From: a virus
Lineage: Duplodnaviria; Heunggongvirae; Uroviricota; Caudoviricetes
Length of the DNA: 12,423 nt
Reading direction: 5' to 3' (one strand)
Virus record (IMG/VR): IMGVR_UViG_2778261176_000013
Span: 1-12,423 of that record
Every line of letters starts with the position of its first letter. Within the stretch, counting starts at the first letter, position 1. The translations under genes were made by a program, and so were the position numbers. The notes below the pieces were generated by a model that made no database searches, had not been told where the DNA came from, and saw only the letters and a program-made list of their open reading frames with translations. Below are positions 3,028 to 12,423 of this stretch, piece after piece.

Positions 3028-3115
3028 GATTTACCTCTGAGGTAATTAAAAACCACATAAGACATGAAATCAATAGAGTTTATAATATTTTGTTACCTAA
3101 CAGGTAATTATCGAG
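3028..3115 (-). promoter_or_regulatory. Second PL-like promoter-operator cassette between the P-like and DUF1064-like genes
   Basis: Minus-strand reading: operator B (3093-3107), 19-bp gap, -35 TTGATT (3073..3068), 17-bp spacer, -10 TTTAAT (3050..3045), operator A (3031-3045) overlapping the -10 and the SD of the gene starting at 3027. Shares CTATTGA and ATTACCTCA with the PL-like region. Confidence 0.5.
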
Positions 3116-3144: not shown

Positions 3145-3921
3145 TTACTTGATAAATCCTGCCGCCTTTCCCCGCCTGTATTCCTCCATCAGCCACTGCG
3201 CCGGTGTTATTCCCCCAAGGGTGGCGGCGTTAGGCATGCACCCGAAACTTCGCCCTGGTGGATGGTAAACGTCTCTCCCTGTGTCCGGAGGTGTACTCAT
3301 GGGCTCTGGCTTTGCCTGTATGCTGATCACCGGATCGGGTATCTGCTGTCCGGAAGCCACCTTTTTCGCCCAATCATCGAGCAGCCTGCGCGCGTGTTTC
3401 TCAACCTCAATCTCGCTAAGCTGGCGCTGATACATTGCACGGCGGGTATCACATACGACCCAGTACATAACCGGATGTCGCCACGGGAATCTTTCGGGAC
3501 CACCAGGATATAAACTTTTTTCCTTGCTGTACCGGTGAAACTCCGCCATCACATCGTCAATGGTGACGCCAAGAACCATCTTGCTGTCTTTGCACCACTT
3601 GATGAATTGCCCAGGCGACGGCCAGAACGGAGATTCACTGGCGCGGGCGTGGCGCATACCAGCGTTAACCTGTTCCATTGTTGTGATCCCATTCTCCAGA
3701 AACGCAAGCATCCATTGCTTACGGAATTCATTAAGTTTGTTCTGCTCCCTTATGGTCGAAACGCTTGCAGGAAATGCAGCCTGTAACTGGACAAATAGTT
3801 CATTGAAAATTCTAGCAACCTGCTCCTTTTTGCCATTGCTGTCACGCCGCTCTTCATGCACAGCAACACCATGCTCACGTAAGCGATCGTACTCATTGAG
3901 AAGTTCTGGAGTTGATTTCAT
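3145..3921 (-). CDS. Replication protein P-like (DnaB helicase loader)
   Basis: [44 protein letters not shown] closely parallels the lambda P segment [23 protein letters not shown]...PFLPSPGQFVAWC as I recall it. Start overlaps the end of the O-like gene, as in lambda. Confidence 0.85.
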
Positions 3922-4723
3922 CCCACACCCCTTCTATCCAGTCAGTGTTATTCCAGTCAAGCTCATCGCTTTTCCCGGCGTTTTTTGATTTTCCCCTGAT
4001 ATGATTTACGTGCCTGGCGAATTTTTGTTCCCACTGAACCTGCGTGAACACTTTGCCCTCAGCCATCCAGTAATCCCGGAATGCAGCAAGTTCAGCAGGT
4101 GTAAATTCCGGTTCCGGCAGGGCCGTTCCCCACAGCGCAGCACGCCGTCGAAAATCCGGCGACGGATGCCAGCCATCGGTCATCGGAAATTTCCCAATAG
4201 GTTCACTCAGGCCATCCAGAAATGCAGGTTCTGCCACCTGCAACGGCGTACCGTTCGCTTCACTGGTCGGATCACTCTCGCGCGCGTGCGCTATGTGTGG
4301 GGTTTTATATATATCTTCCTCTTCCTCTTCCTCTGGTAACTCCTTTTGTAACGCTGTTGGCGTTACTTTTTGCGTTACTCGTTTTCGATGCTCTGCCACT
4401 CTTCTATTCGTAAGTGCACGTTTTTTCGATGATTCTCCATTATGTCGCTCAAAGTTTGGAAGAATTAGTTTGCCGTCATGATAAGCAAGCCATCCGACGC
4501 TAATGAGGGCGTCAGCAAATCCTGTAATAAAAGCGAGTCTATCAAGTACTCCTTTTGTAACGCTGCCAGCGTTACCGTCTATTGTTTGCTGGTCAGCCCA
4601 TGCCCATATACGAACCAGCTTTCCAAGAACAGCATCTGGATCAATACCCAGAATTTCTGCTATCTGAAAAATTTCAGGTTTATCAGGAGTGATAACTTCA
4701 ACCTTAATCCAGCTGCTTGCCAT
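3893..4723 (-). CDS. Replication initiator / replisome organiser (O-like)
   Basis: Sits immediately upstream of and overlapping the P-like gene. Start trimmed to ATG at 4723 (AGAGGGGAAA SD); the ORF-track GTG at 4741 is less likely. Has an acidic linker (EEEEEED) and contains palindromic iteron-like DNA repeats. Confidence 0.75.
4341..4383. repeat. Iteron-like palindrome cluster inside the O-like gene (candidate origin element)
   Basis: CTCCTTTTGTAACGCTG-TTG-GCGTTAC, then TTTTT-GCGTTAC. Palindrome GTAACGC/GCGTTAC at 4348-4366 plus a third half-site at 4372-4378. Adjacent to (CG)4 at 4281-4288, AT-rich TTTTATATATAT at 4303-4314 and a (CTTCCT)3 repeat. Confidence 0.5.
4560..4585. repeat. Second copy of the iteron-like element inside the O-like gene
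   Basis: TCCTTTTGTAACGCTG-C-CAGCGTTAC; 19-bp perfect palindrome at 4567-4585. The shared 17-nt left arm is identical to the copy at 4341, but the two copies fall in different reading frames of the O-like ORF. Confidence 0.5.
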
Positions 4724-4916
4724 AGGTTTCCCCTCTTGCACTCTTTAGTGCACAAGCAAATTCATTACGATGGCGGTTGGCGCTATTCATTGCACATTCA
4801 ACACATGTTCCGTTCAGAACATACCTTTCAGAGAGATGGCCGTGACGGCACCGCTTTCCTGTGAAATAGCGATTTAACCCGGCTTTTGCGGCCTCCATTC
4901 TGGTTACTATCTTCAA
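4704..4916 (-). CDS. Small zinc-ribbon protein in the cII position (64-70 aa)
   Basis: Cys/His cluster CRHGH...CVEC. Lies between the cro-like and O-like genes. Start is ambiguous: TTG at 4916 (AAGGGG upstream) or ATG at 4898. Overlaps the O-like start by about 20 nt in another frame. Confidence 0.45.
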
Positions 4917-4994
4917 TTTTTCCGCCCCTTTTTGTTATTGATATTGGCTATTTTGCACAATTGGAAAATTTGATCAACCAGATTTGGTTTTTTA

Positions 4995-5009
4995 TTACCT
5001 TTGAGGTAC
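4995..5009. promoter_or_regulatory. Isolated operator-family site downstream of the cro-like gene
   Basis: TTACC-TTTGA-GGTAC (9/10 half-site match). Preceded on the minus strand by CATATCTATT, the same 10-mer found upstream of the PL-like -35. Confidence 0.4.
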
Positions 5010-5019
5010 GAATAGATAT

Positions 5020-5064: not shown

Positions 5065-5295
5065 TCATGAGTAGAAGAAGTATGCCAGTTCTGCTTTTGA
5101 GCGCAGCCATTGTCTTGTTTTACAGGCTTTAAAAAGCCCATTCATCAATACTTTACCTGGCATTTTGCGCTTACCTGTTAAGTGAGTCTGGATATAGTGA
5201 CTCGTCGTTCCGGCTTCCTGTGCGAAGGCTTCACGCTCATCCGGAGTAAGTGCAAGCCAGTGCTTTTTGAAATCGAAATGTCCGTTATCGCTCAT
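5065..5295 (-). CDS. Cro-like HTH DNA-binding protein (76 aa)
   Basis: Small protein divergent from the repressor gene, with an HTH-like segment REAFAQEAGTTSHYIQTHLTGKR. It is the first gene of the operon containing O and P. Confidence 0.65.
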   Translation of the reverse strand: MSDNGHFDFKKHWLALTPDEREAFAQEAGTTSHYIQTHLTGKRKMPGKVLMNGLFKACKTRQWLRSKAELAYFFYS

Positions 5296-5449
5296 AGCTA
5301 TTGCCTGATATTTATTTCAGATAATAAATATTCACCCATAAGGTAACAAAAATCAAGGATAGTTACCCATGAGGTGCATTTACCTGTTGGGTAATATTGC
5401 TTTAAATTGAATCATCTACTGATTCATATATGAGGCGATTTTCCAGAAA
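5296..5449. promoter_or_regulatory. Divergent repressor/cro control region (OR-like) with three operator-type sites
   Basis: Three sites of the ATTACC-N5-GGTAAT family: 5332-5346 (TCACC-CATAA-GGTAA, 9/10), 5363-5377 (TTACC-CATGA-GGTGC, 8/10), 5380-5394 (TTACC-TGTTG-GGTAA, perfect). Candidate minus-strand promoter: -35 TTGTTA 5349..5344, -10 TATTAT 5326..5321. Confidence 0.6.
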
Positions 5450-6034
5450 ATGAAAAGTATCCAGGACGTCCGCAGGCAAAATCTCAACGACTTGATCGAC
5501 CGTGAATTCAATGGTGTTCAGACGCGGATGGCAGAAAAACTTGGAACTCAGGCAAATCTGGTAAACCGCTGGGCTCTTGGCAAGAAGGTTATCGGCGACC
5601 AGGTTGCGCGAAAAATTGAAGCTGCCGCCAATAAACCACGTAACTGGCTTGATATCGATCGCTCGCTTTCTCAGGAAGGTTTTCAGCCTGTCGGCCCAAG
5701 CGACATTGGTCAGCTGGCGGCTCACAACCTGGAACGCTGGATGAGCGAAAGCCGCGACCTTTCAACTCAGGGAAAACTTCACCGCGCATCCGGCGTCGCC
5801 CAGGTGACAATCAGCCGCCTGTTAAACAATGAGGTCAGTGTTTCCATTTCCACCCTGGAGAATGTTGCATCAGCATTCGGGCGTCACGGCTATGAATTAC
5901 TGATTCACCCGCACGACCCTGCGACCATCAACTATGACCGCTCGCGCTACGCATTGTTACCCGAAACCGAGAAAGCAAAGATCGAAAGTTACATTGAATT
6001 TGTCATCAACCAGAACGAAAAAAACAAACAATAA
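5450..6034 (+). CDS. CI-like immunity repressor with two HTH domains and no S24 peptidase domain (194 aa)
   Basis: Two XRE-type HTH segments (GVQTRMAEKLGTQANLVNRW and ASGVAQVTISRLLNNEVSVSISTLENVASAF). No Ser/Lys autopeptidase region recognisable. Divergent from cro across an operator-rich intergenic region and followed by a strong intrinsic terminator. Confidence 0.7.
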   Translation: MKSIQDVRRQNLNDLIDREFNGVQTRMAEKLGTQANLVNRWALGKKVIGDQVARKIEAAANKPRNWLDIDRSLSQEGFQPVGPSDIGQLAAHNLERWMSESRDLSTQGKLHRASGVAQVTISRLLNNEVSVSISTLENVASAFGRHGYELLIHPHDPATINYDRSRYALLPETEKAKIESYIEFVINQNEKNKQ

Positions 6035-6055
6035 AATCATATTTTTCAGTAAGTA

Positions 6056-6078
6056 AGCCGCCTTCTGGCGGCTTTTTT
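6056..6078 (+). terminator. Intrinsic terminator downstream of the CI-like repressor gene
   Basis: AGCCGCC-TTCT-GGCGGCT stem-loop followed by a T6 tract. Confidence 0.75.
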
Positions 6079-6084
6079 ATTGCC

Positions 6085-6187
6085 TATACTATTACCTAAT
6101 GGGTAATTTTTTTAACTCATATCTATTGACACCAAACCAAATACGCATAATTATTACCTCAACGGTAACAGACCGAGGTAACAAGTT
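6085..6187 (+). promoter_or_regulatory. PL-like early promoter flanked by two perfect operators
   Basis: -35 TTGACA at 6126-6131, with a -10-like CATAATTA at 6146-6153. Operator G (6092-6106) lies 19 bp upstream of -35; operator H (6154-6168) abuts the -10 and covers the likely start site. Confidence 0.6.
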
Positions 6188-9277: not shown

Positions 9278-9920
9278 GAAATACACACTAATCTATGCAG
9301 ATCCACCCTGGGTATACCGGGACAAAGCCGCAGATGGTAATCGCGGTGCCGGTTTTAAATATCCGGTTATGAGTGTGCTGGACATCTGCCGCCTTCCTGT
9401 GTGGGATTTGGCCGATGAAAACTGTCTGTTGGCCATGTGGTGGGTGCCAACACAACCACTCGAAGCACTAAAAGTTATTGAAGCCTGGGGATTCCGTCTG
9501 ATGACCATGAAGGGATTCACGTGGATAAAATGTGGTAGTCGACAACCAGATAAACTGGTTATGGGTATGGGTCACATGACTCGCGCCAATAGTGAAGATT
9601 GCCTGTTTGCGGTAAAGGGAAAACTACCTCCGCGCATTAATGCAGGGATCGTTCAGTCATTTACCGCACCGCGACTTGAGCATTCAAGAAAACCAGATGT
9701 CGTTCGTGAAAAACTTGTGCAATTGTTAGGCGATGTTTCTCGCATTGAACTGTTCGCCCGCCAGTCGTCTCATGGCTTCGATGTTTGGGGTAATCAGTGC
9801 GAAGACCCGGCAGTGCAACTACACCCTGGATACGCGTTGGATATTGGCGGATTAACAAATGCATTCAGCAATTCTCCGCTGTCACCAACAGACAACCAGG
9901 GGCGGGAGCGTGCAGCATGA
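9270..9920 (+). CDS. MT-A70-family DNA N6-adenine methyltransferase (orphan, no adjacent restriction enzyme)
   Basis: N-terminal YTLIYADPPWVY carries the DPPW catalytic motif. ATG at 9270 (GTG at 9258 is an alternative). Stop overlaps the start of the next ORF (ATGA). Confidence 0.8.
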   Translation: MTKKYTLIYADPPWVYRDKAADGNRGAGFKYPVMSVLDICRLPVWDLADENCLLAMWWVPTQPLEALKVIEAWGFRLMTMKGFTWIKCGSRQPDKLVMGMGHMTRANSEDCLFAVKGKLPPRINAGIVQSFTAPRLEHSRKPDVVREKLVQLLGDVSRIELFARQSSHGFDVWGNQCEDPAVQLHPGYALDIGGLTNAFSNSPLSPTDNQGRERAA

Positions 9921-10165
9921 AGCAGATTATGGTTGCACACAACGGCGTCAGGTTTGAAGTCGTCATGGTTTTGACTAAGTTCCACAATGATGAGGTATTG
10001 CACAGAAAAGAAACTGTAACTTACCGTTATAAACACCGCAGTTCAGCTGTTAGAAAATTACGGAAGATTGCGGAAGAACTAAAAAATGATCCTCATCGTG
10101 TTATTGAGGTAAAAGGCAACCCATATAAAATCAAAACTTCAGTGGAGCTAAGACATATGCAATAA
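9917..10165 (+). CDS. Hypothetical basic protein (82 aa), coupled to the methyltransferase
   Basis: ATG at 9917 overlaps the methyltransferase stop, with GGGAGCG upstream. Lys/Arg-rich. Followed by a 324-bp intergenic region with a terminator-like element. Confidence 0.5.
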   Translation: MKQIMVAHNGVRFEVVMVLTKFHNDEVLHRKETVTYRYKHRSSAVRKLRKIAEELKNDPHRVIEVKGNPYKIKTSVELRHMQ

Positions 10166-10296
10166 AATCACGCCTGACGAATCGCGATTATCTCGCTATT
10201 GGTATTGCAGAGATTGCTGGACTCAATGGCGCATGATTTGACAATGCCGCCAGAGCTATCGCATACTGACCGCACTAGAAAACAAACAGCGGTCAT

Positions 10297-10324
10297 CCGC
10301 ACCCGATAGCTTTGCGGCTTTTTT
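10297..10324 (+). terminator. Possible intrinsic terminator after the methyltransferase operon
   Basis: CCGCA ... TGCGG stem (5 bp) with an 11-nt loop, followed by C and a T6 tract. Confidence 0.35.
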
Positions 10325-10409
10325 ATGCCTGCAATCTGGCATAGTCACATCCGTACAAAGGTCGGGTGGAGAGGCGTAATACAACACCCGAAAGGGGAAT
10401 ATGCCCGGA

Positions 10410-10489
10410 GCTACTGTTTGTGCTCTAGTTGACACCCGATCACCAGTTACTAACTGGTTTTCGTAACTAAAAACAAACAGGAGGTCATC
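10410..10489 (+). promoter_or_regulatory. Antirepressor upstream region with TTGACA hexamer and a 15-bp perfect palindrome
   Basis: TTGACA at 10429-10434. Perfect palindrome CCAGTTA-C-TAACTGG at 10443-10457. No convincing -10 hexamer found by eye. Confidence 0.4.
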
Positions 10490-11140
10490 ATGACCAGTCA
10501 ACTCATCCCCGTATTCAACGGCACTATATCCAACGAAACCGCTCTTCTCGTTAATGCCCGTGATTTACACACTTTCCTCGATGTGGGTAAGCGATTTGCT
10601 TCGTGGATTGTCGAACGAATTGCTGAATATGGTTTCGTTGAAAATCAAGACTTTATGATTATTTCCCAAGTTCGGGAAAAAATAGGCAGAGGCCGTCCTG
10701 CAAAAGACTACCACCTCACCCTCGATACAGCCAAAGAGCTGGCGATGGTCGAGCGTAATGAAAAAGGTCGTCAGGTACGACGCTACTTCATTGAATGCGA
10801 GAAACGTTTAAGACAACAAGAAACAAAAGTGGAGAAGGTCTTGTCAGGCTTCATGCCCGCCATTATGGAGGCGATCAAGCTGGAAGACAAAAAAGAATAC
10901 AGTGCCCCACTGAAGCCCGGCTACCGCAGCCTGATTCACTCGCCGTCTGGTGTTCTCGGCCTGACGGAGAACTCACTGCTGATGAATCTGCTGAACCAGT
11001 TACAGGAAGACGGGCACGACGTATCGGGTGCGGCGGCGGAGCTGACCACCATGTTCTGCTACATCGTCGGTGTGAGCAAATGCCTGCGTGATATCCAGAC
11101 CCACGCGGAGTACATCAACGACAAGGCAGGGTTCTTCTGA
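10490..11140 (+). CDS. Phage antirepressor, AntA/AntB N-terminal domain type (216 aa)
   Basis: AGGAGG 7 nt upstream of ATG. N-terminal region (LIPVFNGT...ARDLHTFLDVGKRFASWIVERIAEYGFVENQDF...KDYHLTLDTAKELAMVERNEKGRQVRRYF) matches AntA/AntB antirepressor domains as I recall them. Confidence 0.75.
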   Translation: MTSQLIPVFNGTISNETALLVNARDLHTFLDVGKRFASWIVERIAEYGFVENQDFMIISQVREKIGRGRPAKDYHLTLDTAKELAMVERNEKGRQVRRYFIECEKRLRQQETKVEKVLSGFMPAIMEAIKLEDKKEYSAPLKPGYRSLIHSPSGVLGLTENSLLMNLLNQLQEDGHDVSGAAAELTTMFCYIVGVSKCLRDIQTHAEYINDKAGFF

Positions 11141-11172: not shown

Positions 11173-12423
11173 TTATTCCCCCGCCATCCACTTCTCAAAC
11201 TTCGACGGGGAGAACGGAATCAGATCCGTATGCTCCCCGTCAATCCATGAATCAATCATATCGGCCCACTGCTGCAACATGTAGGCGCGCTGTCTGGCGT
11301 ATTCCGCTTTGTTGTATACGGCGCGCACACCTTTCTGCTCATGTGCCAGAGCCTTTTCAATCCAGTCTGAAGGATAACCAGCCTCATGCAACAACGTACT
11401 GGCTGTACGGCGCATATCATGTACAGTGAAGTCCTGAATATGCTCACCATCTTCATTTATTATTTTCACCGTTCTGTCGATCAGAGAGTTCAGCGCGGCA
11501 TTAGATAATGGCTTCCGGAAATTGTAACGACCAGGAACCAGATATTCACTTCCACCAGCGCACATCTGCAACCCGACCAATATATCCTGTGCCTGTTTAG
11601 GCAGGTAAATAACGTGCGCCCGGCTTCCCTTCATGCGGTCTGGAGGAATTGTCCATGTCCATTTTTTAAAATCTATTTCATCCCACGTTGCATTGGTGAA
11701 TTCGCCCTTACGAACCATAGTGATAAGCACCAGTTTTAAAGCCATTTTCATAGTGCCCATAGCACCAATGGCATCCAGCGTGCGGAAGAACAGGCCAATT
11801 TCTTCTGGTGTCAGTGTTCGCTCTCGTGGTTTAAATATGGCGATAGACGAAGGTTTAATGTCAGCCGCAGGATTAAACAAACCATGACCACGGTCATTGG
11901 CGTGACGGTATACGCTACTGATGATCTCCCTGGCCTGCACTGCTGTTGCCCGGCCACCGCGTTCGACAATCCGGTCACACAAATCACGAACCATCGATGT
12001 GGTAATTTCAGCCATCATTTTATTGCCAAGAACCGGAAGTATGTCACGGTCGATCACCGCCTGTTTCATTGCGCGGGTACTGTCAGCCAGGATGACGTGT
12101 TTCATATAACTGTCGGTATGTACCGCAAACGTCTCGGCACCACGAATCTTTTTGATACCGTCACGTTTAGCCGCAGCCGGTGACTGGCCTGCTTTAAGCA
12201 GCTTCTTTGCAGCAATCAGTTCTTCTCGCGCTTCTGCCAGGCTGATACCGTCACGCCCATACTGCCCGATTACCAGTGTTTCGCGGCGACCGTTGATACG
12301 GTAGTCATAGCGAAACGAGACCGTGCCTGACGTAAGCACAGCTACATACAGCCCGTCACGATCGGAGACCTTGTACAGTTTGTCCTGCGGCTTGAGGTTT
12401 TTTAATTTTGTATCGGTAAGCAC
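11173..12423 (-). CDS. Tyrosine integrase, P4-type (N-terminus truncated by window edge)
   Basis: N-terminal LTDTKLKNLKP...YKVSDRDGLYVAVLTSGTVSFRYDYRINGRRETL is typical of P4-like integrases. C-terminal catalytic region has HDMRRT and AHEQKGVRAVYNKAEY (conserved Tyr). The ORF runs to the last base of the window. Confidence 0.9.
   Translation of the reverse strand: MLTDTKLKNLKPQDKLYKVSDRDGLYVAVLTSGTVSFRYDYRINGRRETLVIGQYGRDGISLAEAREELIAAKKLLKAGQSPAAAKRDGIKKIRGAETFAVHTDSYMKHVILADSTRAMKQAVIDRDILPVLGNKMMAEITTSMVRDLCDRIVERGGRATAVQAREIISSVYRHANDRGHGLFNPAADIKPSSIAIFKPRERTLTPEEIGLFFRTLDAIGAMGTMKMALKLVLITMVRKGEFTNATWDEIDFKKWTWTIPPDRMKGSRAHVIYLPKQAQDILVGLQMCAGGSEYLVPGRYNFRKPLSNAALNSLIDRTVKIINEDGEHIQDFTVHDMRRTASTLLHEAGYPSDWIEKALAHEQKGVRAVYNKAEYARQRAYMLQQWADMIDSWIDGEHTDLIPFSPSKFEKWMAGE

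What the first reader, a model, noticed from the sequence alone, without database searches (positions are those of the whole stretch)
10166..11140. Antirepressor with a long leader containing a perfect 15-bp palindrome that is not a LexA box
The antirepressor gene is preceded by 324 bp of non-coding DNA containing a terminator-like element, a TTGACA hexamer (10429-10434) and the perfect palindrome CCAGTTACTAACTGG (10443-10457). This palindrome differs from the ATTACC-N5-GGTAAT operator and does not fit the LexA consensus CTGT-N8-ACAG, so the antirepressor is probably controlled by a dedicated regulator not identified here. The antirepressor's C-terminal 100 residues match nothing I recognise.
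Basis: seen in the sequence. Interest (0 to 1): 0.5.

Follow-up and report, generated by a model that had tools for sequence, protein, structure and literature searches.

The report
RNA-controlled antirepressor leader in a prophage
The long "leader" in front of this prophage antirepressor gene is not an empty spacer with a protein operator: it encodes a small structured RNA (Rfam family sRNA-Xcc1) whose loops are complementary to the antirepressor's ribosome-binding site, the same kind of RNA immunity switch that phage P1 uses (c4 RNA), and Shiga-toxin phages carry the same module.

Summary
Bases 10360-10449 match the Rfam family sRNA-Xcc1 above its curated threshold. The TTGACA hexamer and the left half of the palindrome lie inside or directly next to this RNA.

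In about 100 related viral loci:
- The loop of the RNA's second hairpin is complementary to the sequence overlapping the Shine-Dalgarno site of the next gene. It is also complementary to a duplicate about 80 nt upstream. Both co-vary with the loop (at least 7 nt in 61-68% of loci, against 2-4% in cross-locus controls).
- The next gene is usually an antirepressor-type protein.

The order is promoter, target copy, leaky terminator, antisense RNA, target/SD, ant. That is the layout of the phage P1 immI region (a1b1, c4, a2b2, ant), although the Rfam C4 and isrK models do not match here.

The palindrome is a hairpin immediately 3' of the RNA's closing stem. Its stem co-varies in relatives. It is perfect only in this window (T10447 is C in all seven relatives). 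An 8+8 palindrome is expected by chance in about half of sequences of this size.

No LexA box and no CI-type operator lies in the leader. The Ant C-terminus matches known phage antirepressor families.

Verdict: a new variant of a known kind, of moderate interest.

The parts
10238..10267 (+). Sigma-70-type promoter, TTGACA-18 nt-CATACT (10 of 12 matches). It is the probable start of the whole leader/ant transcript, with the transcription start inferred near 10274.
   Evidence: Reported by the promoter scan. The -35 is conserved in 6 of 8 subfamily members and the -10 in 5. Homology to the Stx-phage ant loci begins exactly at 10238 (query position 73).
10274..10289 (+). Upstream copy of the antisense targets: a1 (ACTAG, 10274-10278) and b1 (ACAAACAG, 10282-10289). 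It is equivalent to a1/b1 of P1 immI and is the likely seed of a short decoy RNA.
   Evidence: b1 is an exact 8-nt complement of the hairpin-2 loop, 78 nt before the RNA. Across the family an upstream complement of at least 7 nt occurs in 68% of loci, against 3.9% in cross-locus controls. The duplex energy is -12.0 kcal/mol.
10297..10324 (+). Rho-independent terminator-like hairpin (CCGCA / TGCGG, loop CCCGATAGCTT, then C and six T). It lies between the target copy and the RNA and probably acts as a leaky terminator that yields a leader RNA of about 50 nt.
   Evidence: Read directly from the sequence. It is almost invariant in the subfamily. An equivalent hairpin with a co-varying stem, a conserved CCCGNNAG loop and a T-run is found in 49 of 87 family loci. 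P1 has an analogous hairpin, matched by the isrK model.
10360..10449 (+). Structured small RNA of Rfam family sRNA-Xcc1. It has a 9-bp closing stem (10360-68 with 10433-41), hairpin 1 with a GAAA loop, hairpin 2 (10407-10426), a single-stranded junction and an ACCA tail.
   Evidence: cmscan gives 65.2 bits (gathering score 53), E = 3e-10, over the full model length. In the subfamily the closing stem is 98.6% paired, with compensatory changes. Folding gives a z-score of -3.2.
10414..10421 (+). b' antisense segment: the hairpin-2 loop, CTGTTTGT.
   Evidence: It is an exact complement of 10473-10480 and of 10282-10289.
10426..10432 (+). a' antisense segment: the junction TAGTTGA.
   Evidence: Across the family, junction and target are complementary over at least 6 nt in 70% of loci, against 7.9% in controls. 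The junction target always lies 5' of the loop target (59 of 59). In this window it pairs with TAACTA 10464-69 (6 bp including one G-U) and with GTCAACT 10497-10503 (7 bp, -9.3 kcal/mol).
10442..10458 (+). The palindrome. It is a hairpin that begins at the ACCA directly after the closing stem, with a 7-8 bp stem in this window. In relatives the stem is 4-7 bp and the loop is a conserved CTACTAA.
   Evidence: The outer five pairs are 97% paired in the subfamily, and 3 of the 5 show changes on both sides. T10447 is C in all 7 relatives. A hairpin at this position is family-wide: mean MFE is -6.2 against -3.3 kcal/mol for shuffles (p = 5e-13), and it starts 0-1 nt from the stem in 65 of 99 loci.
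10464..10484 (+). Target region in the ant 5'UTR: a2 (TAACTA, 10464-69), b2 (ACAAACAG, 10473-80) and the Shine-Dalgarno GGAGG (10480-84). The start codon is at 10490.
   Evidence: Located. Across the family, the 3' end of b2 lies 7-12 nt before the ATG, and an SD-like tetramer adjoins it in 56 of 62 loci.
10490..11140 (+). The ant gene, encoding a 216-aa antirepressor. It has an AntA N-terminal domain and a C-terminal module shared with epsilon15/phiV10-type phage antirepressors.
   Evidence: Pfam AntA, E = 8e-28. phrog_377 covers aa 1-210, and phrog_450, phrog_15539 and phrog_1760 cover the C-terminus. tblastn hits were found in 34 phage records.

Best explanation
The 324-nt leader is an RNA-based immunity module of the P1 c4 / Gifsy-1 IsrK type.

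Proposed mechanism:
1. Transcription starts at the promoter at 10238-10267.
2. The first ~50 nt carry a copy of the target sequences (a1, b1), followed by a leaky terminator.
3. Read-through transcripts contain an ~88-nt structured RNA of the sRNA-Xcc1 family (10360-~10447).
4. Its hairpin-2 loop (b') and its 3' junction (a') base-pair with the ant 5'UTR at a2/b2. This covers the sequence abutting and overlapping the Shine-Dalgarno site and blocks translation of the antirepressor. The lysogen therefore stays repressed even though the leader is transcribed.
5. The short terminated leader RNA, or the same sequence in cis, can occupy the antisense loops and so relieve repression.
6. The palindrome is an RNA hairpin at the 3' edge of the small RNA. 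It may define or protect the 3' end, or insulate the RNA from its target. It is not a protein operator.

Shown here: family membership of the RNA, the complementarities, their co-variation across about 100 loci, the association with antirepressor genes, and conservation of the layout.

Inferred: translational repression, action in trans, processing (RNase P-like, by analogy with c4), the decoy role of the leader RNA, and the role of the hairpin.
For: - Rfam sRNA-Xcc1 hit above the gathering score.
- An 8-nt exact complement between loop 10414-21 and 10473-80 (adjacent to and overlapping GGAGG), and also with 10282-89. Duplex energies are -11.3 and -12.0 kcal/mol.
- Among 77 distinct loop sequences from viral contigs, a complement of at least 7 nt lies downstream of the locus's own RNA in 61%, against 2.4% for other loci. 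Upstream the figures are 68% against 3.9%.
- Junction targets co-vary likewise, and their order is fixed in 59 of 59 loci.
- The next gene carries antirepressor-type domains. The per-family counts among 83 distinct proteins are P22_AR_C 16, KilA-N 12, Bro-N 11, AntA 8, P22_AR_N 7, pRha 7 and ORF6N 6; one protein can match more than one family.
- P1 immI has the same order of parts and the same RNA topology: closing stem, two hairpins, antisense loop plus junction, CC-rich tail.
- In Gifsy-1 the short leader RNA IsrK activates translation of the downstream antirepressor 140-fold (PMC4825925).
- The founding sRNA-Xcc1 is a discrete 88-nt RNA by end-mapping (PMC2996969).
- EDL933 carries the element (69.1 bits) directly upstream of its Stx-phage Ant. 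An 89-nt sRNA-Xcc1 there is abundant with very low ribosome coverage (PMC5331693).
- No CI-type operator or LexA box lies in the leader.
Against: - There are no experimental data for this phage. Repression, processing and action in trans are all inferred.
- The Rfam C4, c4-a1b1 and isrK models do not match the window even at E <= 10. The resemblance to P1 is therefore architectural, and homology is not demonstrated.
- In this window the a'/a2 pairing is weak: 6 bp with one G-U. A better 7-bp site lies inside the coding region, so the second contact is ambiguous.
- The whole-RNA duplex energy against the target is only modestly better than with shuffled targets (18 of 500 shuffles do as well).
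- Assigning the published EDL933 expression value to this locus rests on matching length and strand, and on a single listed copy. The coordinates differ by ~2.6 kb between assemblies.
- The strand-asymmetry test for the 3' hairpin was neutral, so a DNA-level role for the palindrome is not excluded.
Confidence: 0.75

Rival explanations
1. One reading: ant has its own promoter using TTGACA at 10429-34, and the palindrome 10443-57 is the operator of a dedicated dimeric DNA-binding repressor encoded elsewhere in the prophage, as in P22 Mnt/Arc.
For: - The palindrome is perfect, sits just downstream of a consensus -35 hexamer, and is unique in the window.
- Co-varying symmetric changes in relatives are also what a co-evolving dimer operator would show.
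- The sense/antisense folding test did not favour RNA.
Against: - No acceptable -10 hexamer lies 16-18 nt after TTGACA, and the scan reports no promoter there.
- TTGACA is part of the RNA's junction and closing stem. In other subfamilies it is replaced by TTTCGAAC, TTCTTAAC and similar sequences, which co-vary with downstream targets.
- The perfect symmetry depends on T10447, which is C in the 99.4%-identical E. coli relative and in 6 others. There the element is a 4-7-bp stem with a conserved 7-nt loop, which is hairpin-like rather than operator-like.
- Hairpins of unrelated sequence occupy the same position, 0-1 nt after the closing stem, throughout the family.
- A palindrome of this size is expected by chance in about half of such windows.
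Confidence: 0.06
2. The element acts purely in cis. The Xcc1-type fold is a leader structure that sequesters the ant ribosome-binding site within the same transcript, with a1/b1 as the alternative pairing partner (a structural switch). No diffusible small RNA is involved.
For: - All complementary partners lie on one transcript.
- The minimum-free-energy fold of 10270-10500 pairs a1/b1 with the loop and junction in cis (z = -4.6).
- The co-variation data do not distinguish cis from trans pairing.
Against: - The founding family member is a discrete 88-nt RNA.
- The EDL933 homologue appears as an abundant 89-nt species.
- P1 c4 and P4 CI, which have the same layout, act in trans and set immunity specificity (PMC3632133; established P1 genetics).
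- The 77 distinct loop sequences, and up to 4 copies per E. coli genome, fit a specificity or heteroimmunity role.
Confidence: 0.14
3. The RNA is a trans-acting regulator of host or virulence genes, as sRNA-Xcc1 is described in the Xanthomonas and Xylella literature, and its position before ant is incidental.
For: Published descriptions treat sRNA-Xcc1 as a HrpG/HrpX-controlled virulence-linked sRNA with many predicted targets.
Against: - Those targets are computational predictions.
- Here the loop and junction co-vary with the adjacent gene's 5'UTR in most loci, and the adjacent genes are overwhelmingly antirepressor-type.
- In Xanthomonas integron cassettes the RNA also sits directly upstream of a toxic gene, symE.
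Confidence: 0.05

Closest known systems
Phage P1/P7 immI region: c4 antisense RNA (Rfam C4, RF01695) with a1/b1 and a2/b2 targets controlling icd-ant
   Same: - The order of parts is the same: promoter, upstream target copy, terminator-like hairpin, ~80-90-nt RNA, downstream targets of which the loop target overlaps the SD, then the antirepressor gene.
- The RNA topology is the same: closing stem, hairpin 1 with a tetraloop, hairpin 2 whose loop is one antisense segment, a single-stranded 3' junction as the other, and a CC-rich tail.
- Specificity is variable, which is analogous to P1/P7 heteroimmunity.
   Different: - The Rfam C4, c4-a1b1 and isrK models do not match the window, and the Xcc1 model does not match P1.
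- Hairpin 1 here carries the invariant ATACAA...ACCCGNAAGGGGAA motif.
- There is no icd-like leader ORF; the target is the ant SD itself.
- No prophage-repressor operator overlaps the promoter, whereas P1 has C1 operator Op51.
- An extra conserved hairpin follows the closing stem.
Gifsy-1 IsrK / STnc1160 / orf45-anrP locus (Salmonella)
   Same: - It is a lambdoid prophage.
- A short terminated leader RNA is made, and read-through of its terminator gives the antirepressor mRNA.
- A processed ~80-nt RNA lies downstream of the leader.
- The short RNA activates antirepressor translation in trans (PMC4825925).
   Different: - The sequence and structure families differ (isrK/C4 type against Xcc1 type).
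- Gifsy-1 uses a coupled small ORF (orf45).
- The published mechanism emphasises the leader RNA remodelling the mRNA rather than repression by the downstream RNA.
Satellite phage P4 immunity: CI RNA with seqA/seqC
   Same: A processed small RNA is flanked by upstream and downstream complementary sequences on the same transcript.
   Different: P4 CI causes premature transcription termination of replication genes. It does not block translation of an antirepressor.
P22 immI: ant controlled by Mnt/Arc repressors and sar antisense RNA
   Same: Expression of an antirepressor gene is held down in lysogens, partly by an antisense RNA that pairs at the ant ribosome-binding site.
   Different: - sar is transcribed from the opposite strand of ant.
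- The main control in P22 is by protein operators.
- Here no opposite-strand promoter or protein operator is evident, and the RNA is encoded upstream on the same strand.
sRNA-Xcc1 of Xanthomonas campestris (Rfam RF02221)
   Same: It has the same covariance-model family and the same size (an 88-nt mapped RNA).
   Different: It is described as an integron-borne, HrpG/HrpX-controlled, virulence-linked trans-acting sRNA. None of the papers found connects it to antirepressor or immunity control.

Membership tests
Rfam sRNA-Xcc1 (RF02221) | Covariance-model score at or above the curated gathering score (53 bits) over the full model | tested here: met
   65.2 bits over model positions 1-87 of 87, at 10360-10449 on the + strand.
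Rfam sRNA-Xcc1 (RF02221) | Accumulates as a discrete RNA of about 88 nt | not testable with these tools
   Shown only for the Xcc founder and suggested for EDL933.
Rfam C4 antisense RNA (RF01695) and its clan CL00128 (c4-a1b1 RF03163); Rfam isrK (RF01394, no clan) | Covariance-model match | tested here: not met
   None of the three models hits window 10230-10500 even at E <= 10. P1 scores 68.8 (C4), 51.0 (c4-a1b1) and 35.1 (isrK, below its 50-bit gathering score) bits.
c4-type immI system (functional architecture) | The RNA has two exposed segments complementary to two sites in the 5'UTR of the downstream gene, one of them overlapping the ribosome-binding site | tested here: met
   b' 10414-21 pairs with b2 10473-80, which overlaps the first base of GGAGG. 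a' 10426-31 pairs with a2 10464-69 (6 bp including one G-U). Family-wide co-variation supports both contacts.
c4-type immI system (functional architecture) | A duplicate of both targets (a1, b1) lies upstream of the RNA on the same strand | tested here: met
   ACTAG at 10274-78 and ACAAACAG at 10282-89. Across the family, 68% of loci have an upstream complement of at least 7 nt, against 3.9% in controls.
c4-type immI system (functional architecture) | The controlled gene is an antirepressor | tested here: met
   AntA domain, and antirepressor-type domains dominate the family's downstream genes.
c4-type immI system (functional architecture) | A small leader ORF (icd/orf45) translationally coupled to ant | tested here: not met
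   The SD GGAGG at 10480-84 and the ATG at 10490 belong to ant itself. Other family loci have ORFs of about 80 aa in this position, and these were not examined.
c4-type immI system (functional architecture) | 5' end generated by RNase P, 3' CCA-like tail, and action in trans as an immunity determinant | not testable with these tools
   ACCA follows the closing stem at 10442-45. Most family members start their 3' tail with CC.
c4-type immI system (functional architecture) | An operator of the prophage repressor at the module's promoter (P1 Op51) | tested here: not met
   No TTACC-N5-GGTAA-like site with 3 mismatches or fewer in 10166-10489. Such sites cluster at 3030, 3092, 4994, 5331, 5379, 6091 and 6153.
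LexA-controlled antirepressors (Gifsy GfoA/GfhA, coliphage 186 Tum type) | A LexA box (CTGT-N8-ACAG) at the promoter | tested here: not met
   No match with 1 mismatch or fewer in the leader.
P22-type immI (Mnt/Arc operators plus sar) | A palindromic protein operator overlapping a functional ant promoter, with a convergent antisense promoter inside the ant 5' region | tested here: inconclusive
   No -10 hexamer for TTGACA 10429-34. The palindrome behaves as a family-wide hairpin. A weak minus-strand promoter-like site at 10890-10862 is too far downstream. Protein binding cannot be tested with these tools.
AntA/AntB antirepressor (Pfam PF08346) | Domain score above the Pfam gathering score | tested here: met
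   97.2 bits against a cut-off of 27, at aa 21-90.

The most novel reading that the evidence does not exclude
The whole sRNA-Xcc1 family is a second structural class of c4-type immunity RNAs. The family is widespread in temperate phages, including Shiga-toxin phages, and in integron cassettes, and is so far annotated as a Xanthomonas virulence sRNA. Under this reading it is a programmable two-site antisense repressor with a co-transcribed decoy (a three-RNA switch) that guards antirepressor and toxin genes. It would set heteroimmunity among co-resident lambdoid prophages, and it could provide an SOS-independent route to Stx-prophage induction by changing the ratio of decoy to antisense RNA.
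Probability: 0.45. Interest if true: 0.65.

Novelty: new variant of a known kind. Interest (0 to 1): 0.5.

Why it matters
Antirepressors are a route to prophage induction that bypasses RecA cleavage of the repressor. The same module, with a different loop/target pair, sits in front of the antirepressor of Stx1 and Stx2 phages of E. coli O157:H7, where induction determines toxin output.

Recognising the leader as a c4-like RNA switch has three consequences:
- It explains why ant can be transcribed yet silent in lysogens.
- It gives exact bases to mutate.
- It reassigns a function to an Rfam family that current papers interpret as a plant-pathogen virulence sRNA.

It also offers a naturally diverse set of orthogonal RNA/target pairs: 77 distinct loops in about 100 loci.

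Tried and rejected
- **LexA box and CI-type operator.** Neither is present in the leader.
- **TTGACA 10429-34 as a promoter.** No -10 hexamer was found.
- **Palindrome as an intrinsic terminator.** Only 3 U follow the stem here. None of 99 family hairpins is followed by 4 or more U.
- **Sense versus antisense folding of the 3' hairpin, to separate an RNA role from a DNA role.** No asymmetry was seen (p = 0.22), so the test is uninformative.
- **RNAalifold on a MAFFT alignment of 82 family RNAs.** It recovered only fragments, because the alignment is not in structural register. I used per-locus complementarity statistics and a subfamily alignment instead.
- **My first coordinates for hairpin 1 in the pair count.** They were mis-registered: helix 4 is 47% paired and should be disregarded.
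- **RyhB-like hit at 6022-6080.** It scores 24.5 bits, far below the gathering score of 55, and was treated as chance.
- **The Chen et al. 2011 sRNA-Xcc1 paper.** It is not held in the library.
- **The 81-aa minus-strand ORF at 10256-10501.** It overlaps the RNA but is not annotated in RefSeq relatives, so I regard it as spurious.
Full report
**Observation**

- An ORF at 10490-11140 encodes a 216-aa protein with a Pfam AntA domain at residues 21-90.
- The preceding ORF stops at 10165, which leaves 324 nt.
- TTGACA is at 10429-10434.
- CCAGTTACTAACTGG is at 10443-10457, and the symmetry in fact extends to 8+1+8 at 10442-10458.
- A GC-rich hairpin followed by six T lies at 10297-10324.
- The leader contains no LexA-type box and no copy of the TTACC-N5-GGTAA sites. 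Those sites cluster around the repressor and early operons at 3030, 3092, 4994, 5331, 5379, 6091 and 6153.

The palindrome on its own is not statistically remarkable. About half of composition-matched random sequences of this length contain a perfect 8-arm palindrome, and the window has another at 4557-4575.

**What is really there**

A scan against Rfam finds a full-length match to family sRNA-Xcc1 (RF02221) at 10360-10449 on the + strand. It scores 65.2 bits against a gathering score of 53.

In that fold:
- 10360-10368 pairs with 10433-10441 to form the closing stem.
- Hairpin 1 carries the invariant ATACAA...ACCCGAAAGGGGAA motif.
- Hairpin 2 is 10407-10426, with loop CUGUUUG.
- 10427-10432 is a single-stranded junction.

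The palindrome begins at the ACCA immediately after the stem. No -10 hexamer follows TTGACA. The only good promoter in the region is TTGACA-18-CATACT at 10238-10267, and that is exactly where homology to the Stx-phage ant loci begins.

**Comparative evidence**

Searching viral contigs for the invariant motif returned more than 100 diverse loci. By eye, and then by count, the loop of hairpin 2 is complementary to the sequence just 5' of and overlapping the Shine-Dalgarno site of the next gene, and the loop and target change together. Examples:
- Window: CTGTTTGT with ACAAACAG-GAGG.
- Stx phage PA4: TCTTATTTG with CAAATAAGGAGG.
- L005: CTTTGAAG with CTTCAAAGGAGG.

For 77 distinct loops:

| Comparison | Complement length | Own locus | Cross-locus control |
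|---|---|---|---|
| Loop vs downstream 5-75 nt | at least 7 nt | 61% | 2.4% |
| Loop vs upstream 220 nt | at least 7 nt | 68% | 3.9% |
| Junction vs downstream | at least 6 nt | 70% | 7.9% |
| Junction vs upstream | at least 6 nt | 73% | 12% |

- The 3' end of the loop target lies 7-12 nt before the ATG, and an SD-like tetramer adjoins it in 56 of 62 cases.
- The junction target always lies 5' of the loop target (59 of 59).
- Of 83 distinct downstream proteins, most carry antirepressor-type domains (P22_AR_C 16, KilA-N 12, Bro-N 11, AntA 8, P22_AR_N 7, pRha 7, ORF6N 6).

**The window's module in coordinates**

| Part | Coordinates |
|---|---|
| Promoter | 10238-10267 |
| a1 (ACTAG) | 10274-78 |
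| b1 (ACAAACAG) | 10282-89 |
| Terminator-like hairpin plus six T | 10297-10324 |
| Small hairpin | 10325-42 |
| RNA | 10360-~10447 |
| b' | 10414-21 |
| a' | 10426-31 |
| 3' hairpin (the palindrome) | 10442-58 |
| a2 (TAACTA) | 10464-69 |
| b2 (ACAAACAG) | 10473-80 |
| SD (GGAGG) | 10480-84 |
| ATG | 10490 |

- Loop/target duplexes are -11.3 kcal/mol with b2 and -12.0 kcal/mol with b1.
- The junction also has a perfect 7-nt complement inside the coding region (GTCAACT, 10497-10503). This site is conserved in the closest relatives.
- The full leader folds much better than shuffles (z = -4.6). In that fold, a1/b1 occupy the antisense loop and junction in cis.

**Comparison with P1**

I fetched the annotated P1 immI region. 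Its order of parts is the same: promoters, a1, b1, a terminator-like hairpin, the 77-nt c4 RNA, a2, b2 overlapping the icd SD, then icd-ant.

The Rfam C4 consensus has the same topology as sRNA-Xcc1:
- a closing stem;
- hairpin 1 with a tetraloop;
- hairpin 2, whose large loop is one antisense element;
- a U-rich 3' junction that is the other antisense element;
- a CC-rich tail.

However, the C4, c4-a1b1 and isrK models do not score on the window even at E <= 10, and the Xcc1 model does not score on P1. I therefore treat this as something that works like a c4 system. I do not file it as a member of the C4 family.

Differences from P1:
- There is no icd-like leader ORF.
- No prophage-repressor operator sits at the promoter.
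- An extra hairpin follows the closing stem.

The leader terminator is itself conserved across the Xcc1 family. It has a co-varying stem, a CCCGNNAG loop and a T-run in 49 of 87 loci. This parallels the IsrK-type leader RNA.

In Gifsy-1, read-through of the IsrK terminator gives the antirepressor mRNA, an ~80-nt RNA is processed from it, and the short IsrK RNA activates antirepressor translation 140-fold in trans (PMC4825925). IsrK-C4-type immunity has been noted in P1, P7, P4, N15 and lambdoid Salmonella prophages (PMC3632133).

**The palindrome**

In an alignment of the window with seven relatives, the outer five pairs of the hairpin are 97% paired. Three of the five show changes on both sides: CCAG/CTGG, CCAT/ATGG, CCGG/CCGG and CCAC/GTGG. 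The loop CTACTAA is conserved.

The window's perfect symmetry depends on T10447. That base is C in all seven relatives, including the 99.4%-identical E. coli GF43 prophage.

Across the whole family, a hairpin of unrelated sequence starts 0-1 nt after the closing stem in 65 of 99 loci. These segments fold better than shuffles (-6.2 against -3.3 kcal/mol, p = 5e-13).

The hairpin is not a canonical terminator, because no U-run follows it. A sense/antisense energy comparison gave no strand bias, so a DNA-level role cannot be formally excluded.

I interpret it as an RNA hairpin that marks or protects the 3' end of the small RNA, or that insulates the RNA from the target. This function is inferred.

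**Expression evidence from the literature**

- The founding sRNA-Xcc1 is a discrete 88-nt RNA with mapped ends (PMC2996969).
- EDL933 carries the element (69.1 bits) directly upstream of its Stx-phage Ant.
- An RNA-seq/Ribo-seq study of EDL933 lists a single 89-nt minus-strand sRNA-Xcc1 with read counts comparable to CsrB and RNase P RNA and very low ribosome coverage (PMC5331693).
- The coordinates in that study differ by ~2.6 kb from the RefSeq assembly I could read, so identity of the locus is probable but not proven.
- APSE phages have the RNA upstream of an ORF6N protein.
- Xanthomonas integron cassettes have it upstream of symE.
- None of the 24 papers that mention sRNA-Xcc1, nor a 2025 review of phage sRNAs, connects it with c4-type control of antirepressors.

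**The Ant protein**

The C-terminal part is not orphan. The whole protein matches phrog_377 'anti-repressor Ant' over residues 1-210, and the C-terminus matches phrog_450, phrog_15539 and phrog_1760. tblastn finds the C-terminus in antirepressors of epsilon15/phiV10-like phages of Escherichia and Salmonella, and in Enterobacter and Klebsiella phages.

The Stx-phage homologues share only the leader and the first ~105 codons. This is consistent with a swappable C-terminal domain that recognises the repressor, which is an inference.

**Verdict**

Its interpretation as a protein operator next to an ant promoter is not supported.

The best explanation, with confidence of about 0.75, is a c4/IsrK-like RNA switch built on an sRNA-Xcc1-family RNA that blocks the ant ribosome-binding site.

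This is a new variant of a known kind. The mechanism class has been known since P1. Neither the use of this RNA family for it, nor its presence in front of Stx-phage antirepressors, was described in the literature I could search.

Noticed in passing
window 3030-3046, 3092-3108, 4994-5010, 5331-5347, 5379-5395, 6091-6107, 6153-6169: Seven TTACC-N5-GGTAA-type inverted repeats lie in three clusters. In total there are 12 matches with 3 mismatches or fewer, against 4.0 expected by chance. One cluster sits between the divergent cro-like (5065-5295, - strand) and repressor-like (5450-6034, + strand) genes. A second lies just after the repressor gene. A third, at 3030-3108, lies far from the immunity region, near the replication gene P.
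   Followed up: partly
window 10302-10309 compared with 10433-10440: The loop of the leader terminator contains CACCCGAT, identical to the 3' strand of the small RNA's closing stem. It could therefore compete for the 5' strand GTCGGGTG (10361-68). A CCCG core in this loop is conserved across the family. No explanation was tested.
   Followed up: no
window 10449-10453, 10274-10278 and 10464-10469: The conserved loop of the 3' hairpin (CTACTAA in relatives) carries the same ACTA(A/G) motif as the a1 and a2 targets. This is possibly a third weak docking site for the junction.
   Followed up: no
L073 8261-8343 and 8643-8724; L067 (motif matches at 2288-2308 and 2822-2842): Some viral contigs carry two tandem copies of the motif. 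In L073 the two copies have different hairpin-2 loops and each is followed by its own 127-aa ORF; L067 was not examined further. Published Xylella genomes show arrays of up to five sRNA-Xcc1 copies, and in one strain a tandem run of C4, isrK and sRNA-Xcc1 hits.
   Followed up: no
about 15 viral loci, for example L011 5889-6128, L015, L018, L042, L049: In one subfamily the gene directly after the RNA is an ORF of about 80 aa with no Pfam match. It is possibly an icd/orf45-like leader ORF coupled to a downstream antirepressor.
   Followed up: no
window 11173-12423 (- strand); L001: A P4-type integrase (Arm-DNA-bind_3 plus Phage_integrase domains) runs convergently to ant at the prophage end. In E. 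coli GF43 the prophage abuts guaA. The ~39-kb phages HEMP4 and phiv142-3 are the closest sequenced phages.
   Followed up: partly
window 4557-4575: A second perfect 8-arm palindrome lies inside the replication-gene region, within the DnaT-like ORF at 3893-4741.
   Followed up: no
window 6022-6080: A weak RyhB-like cmscan hit scores 24.5 bits against a gathering score of 55. It is essentially the terminator hairpin after the repressor gene and is probably chance.
   Followed up: no
window 9917-10165: The gene just upstream of the leader encodes 82 aa in the RefSeq annotation and matches phrog_9805, of unknown function. It sits between an MT-A70 methyltransferase gene and the ant module.
   Followed up: no
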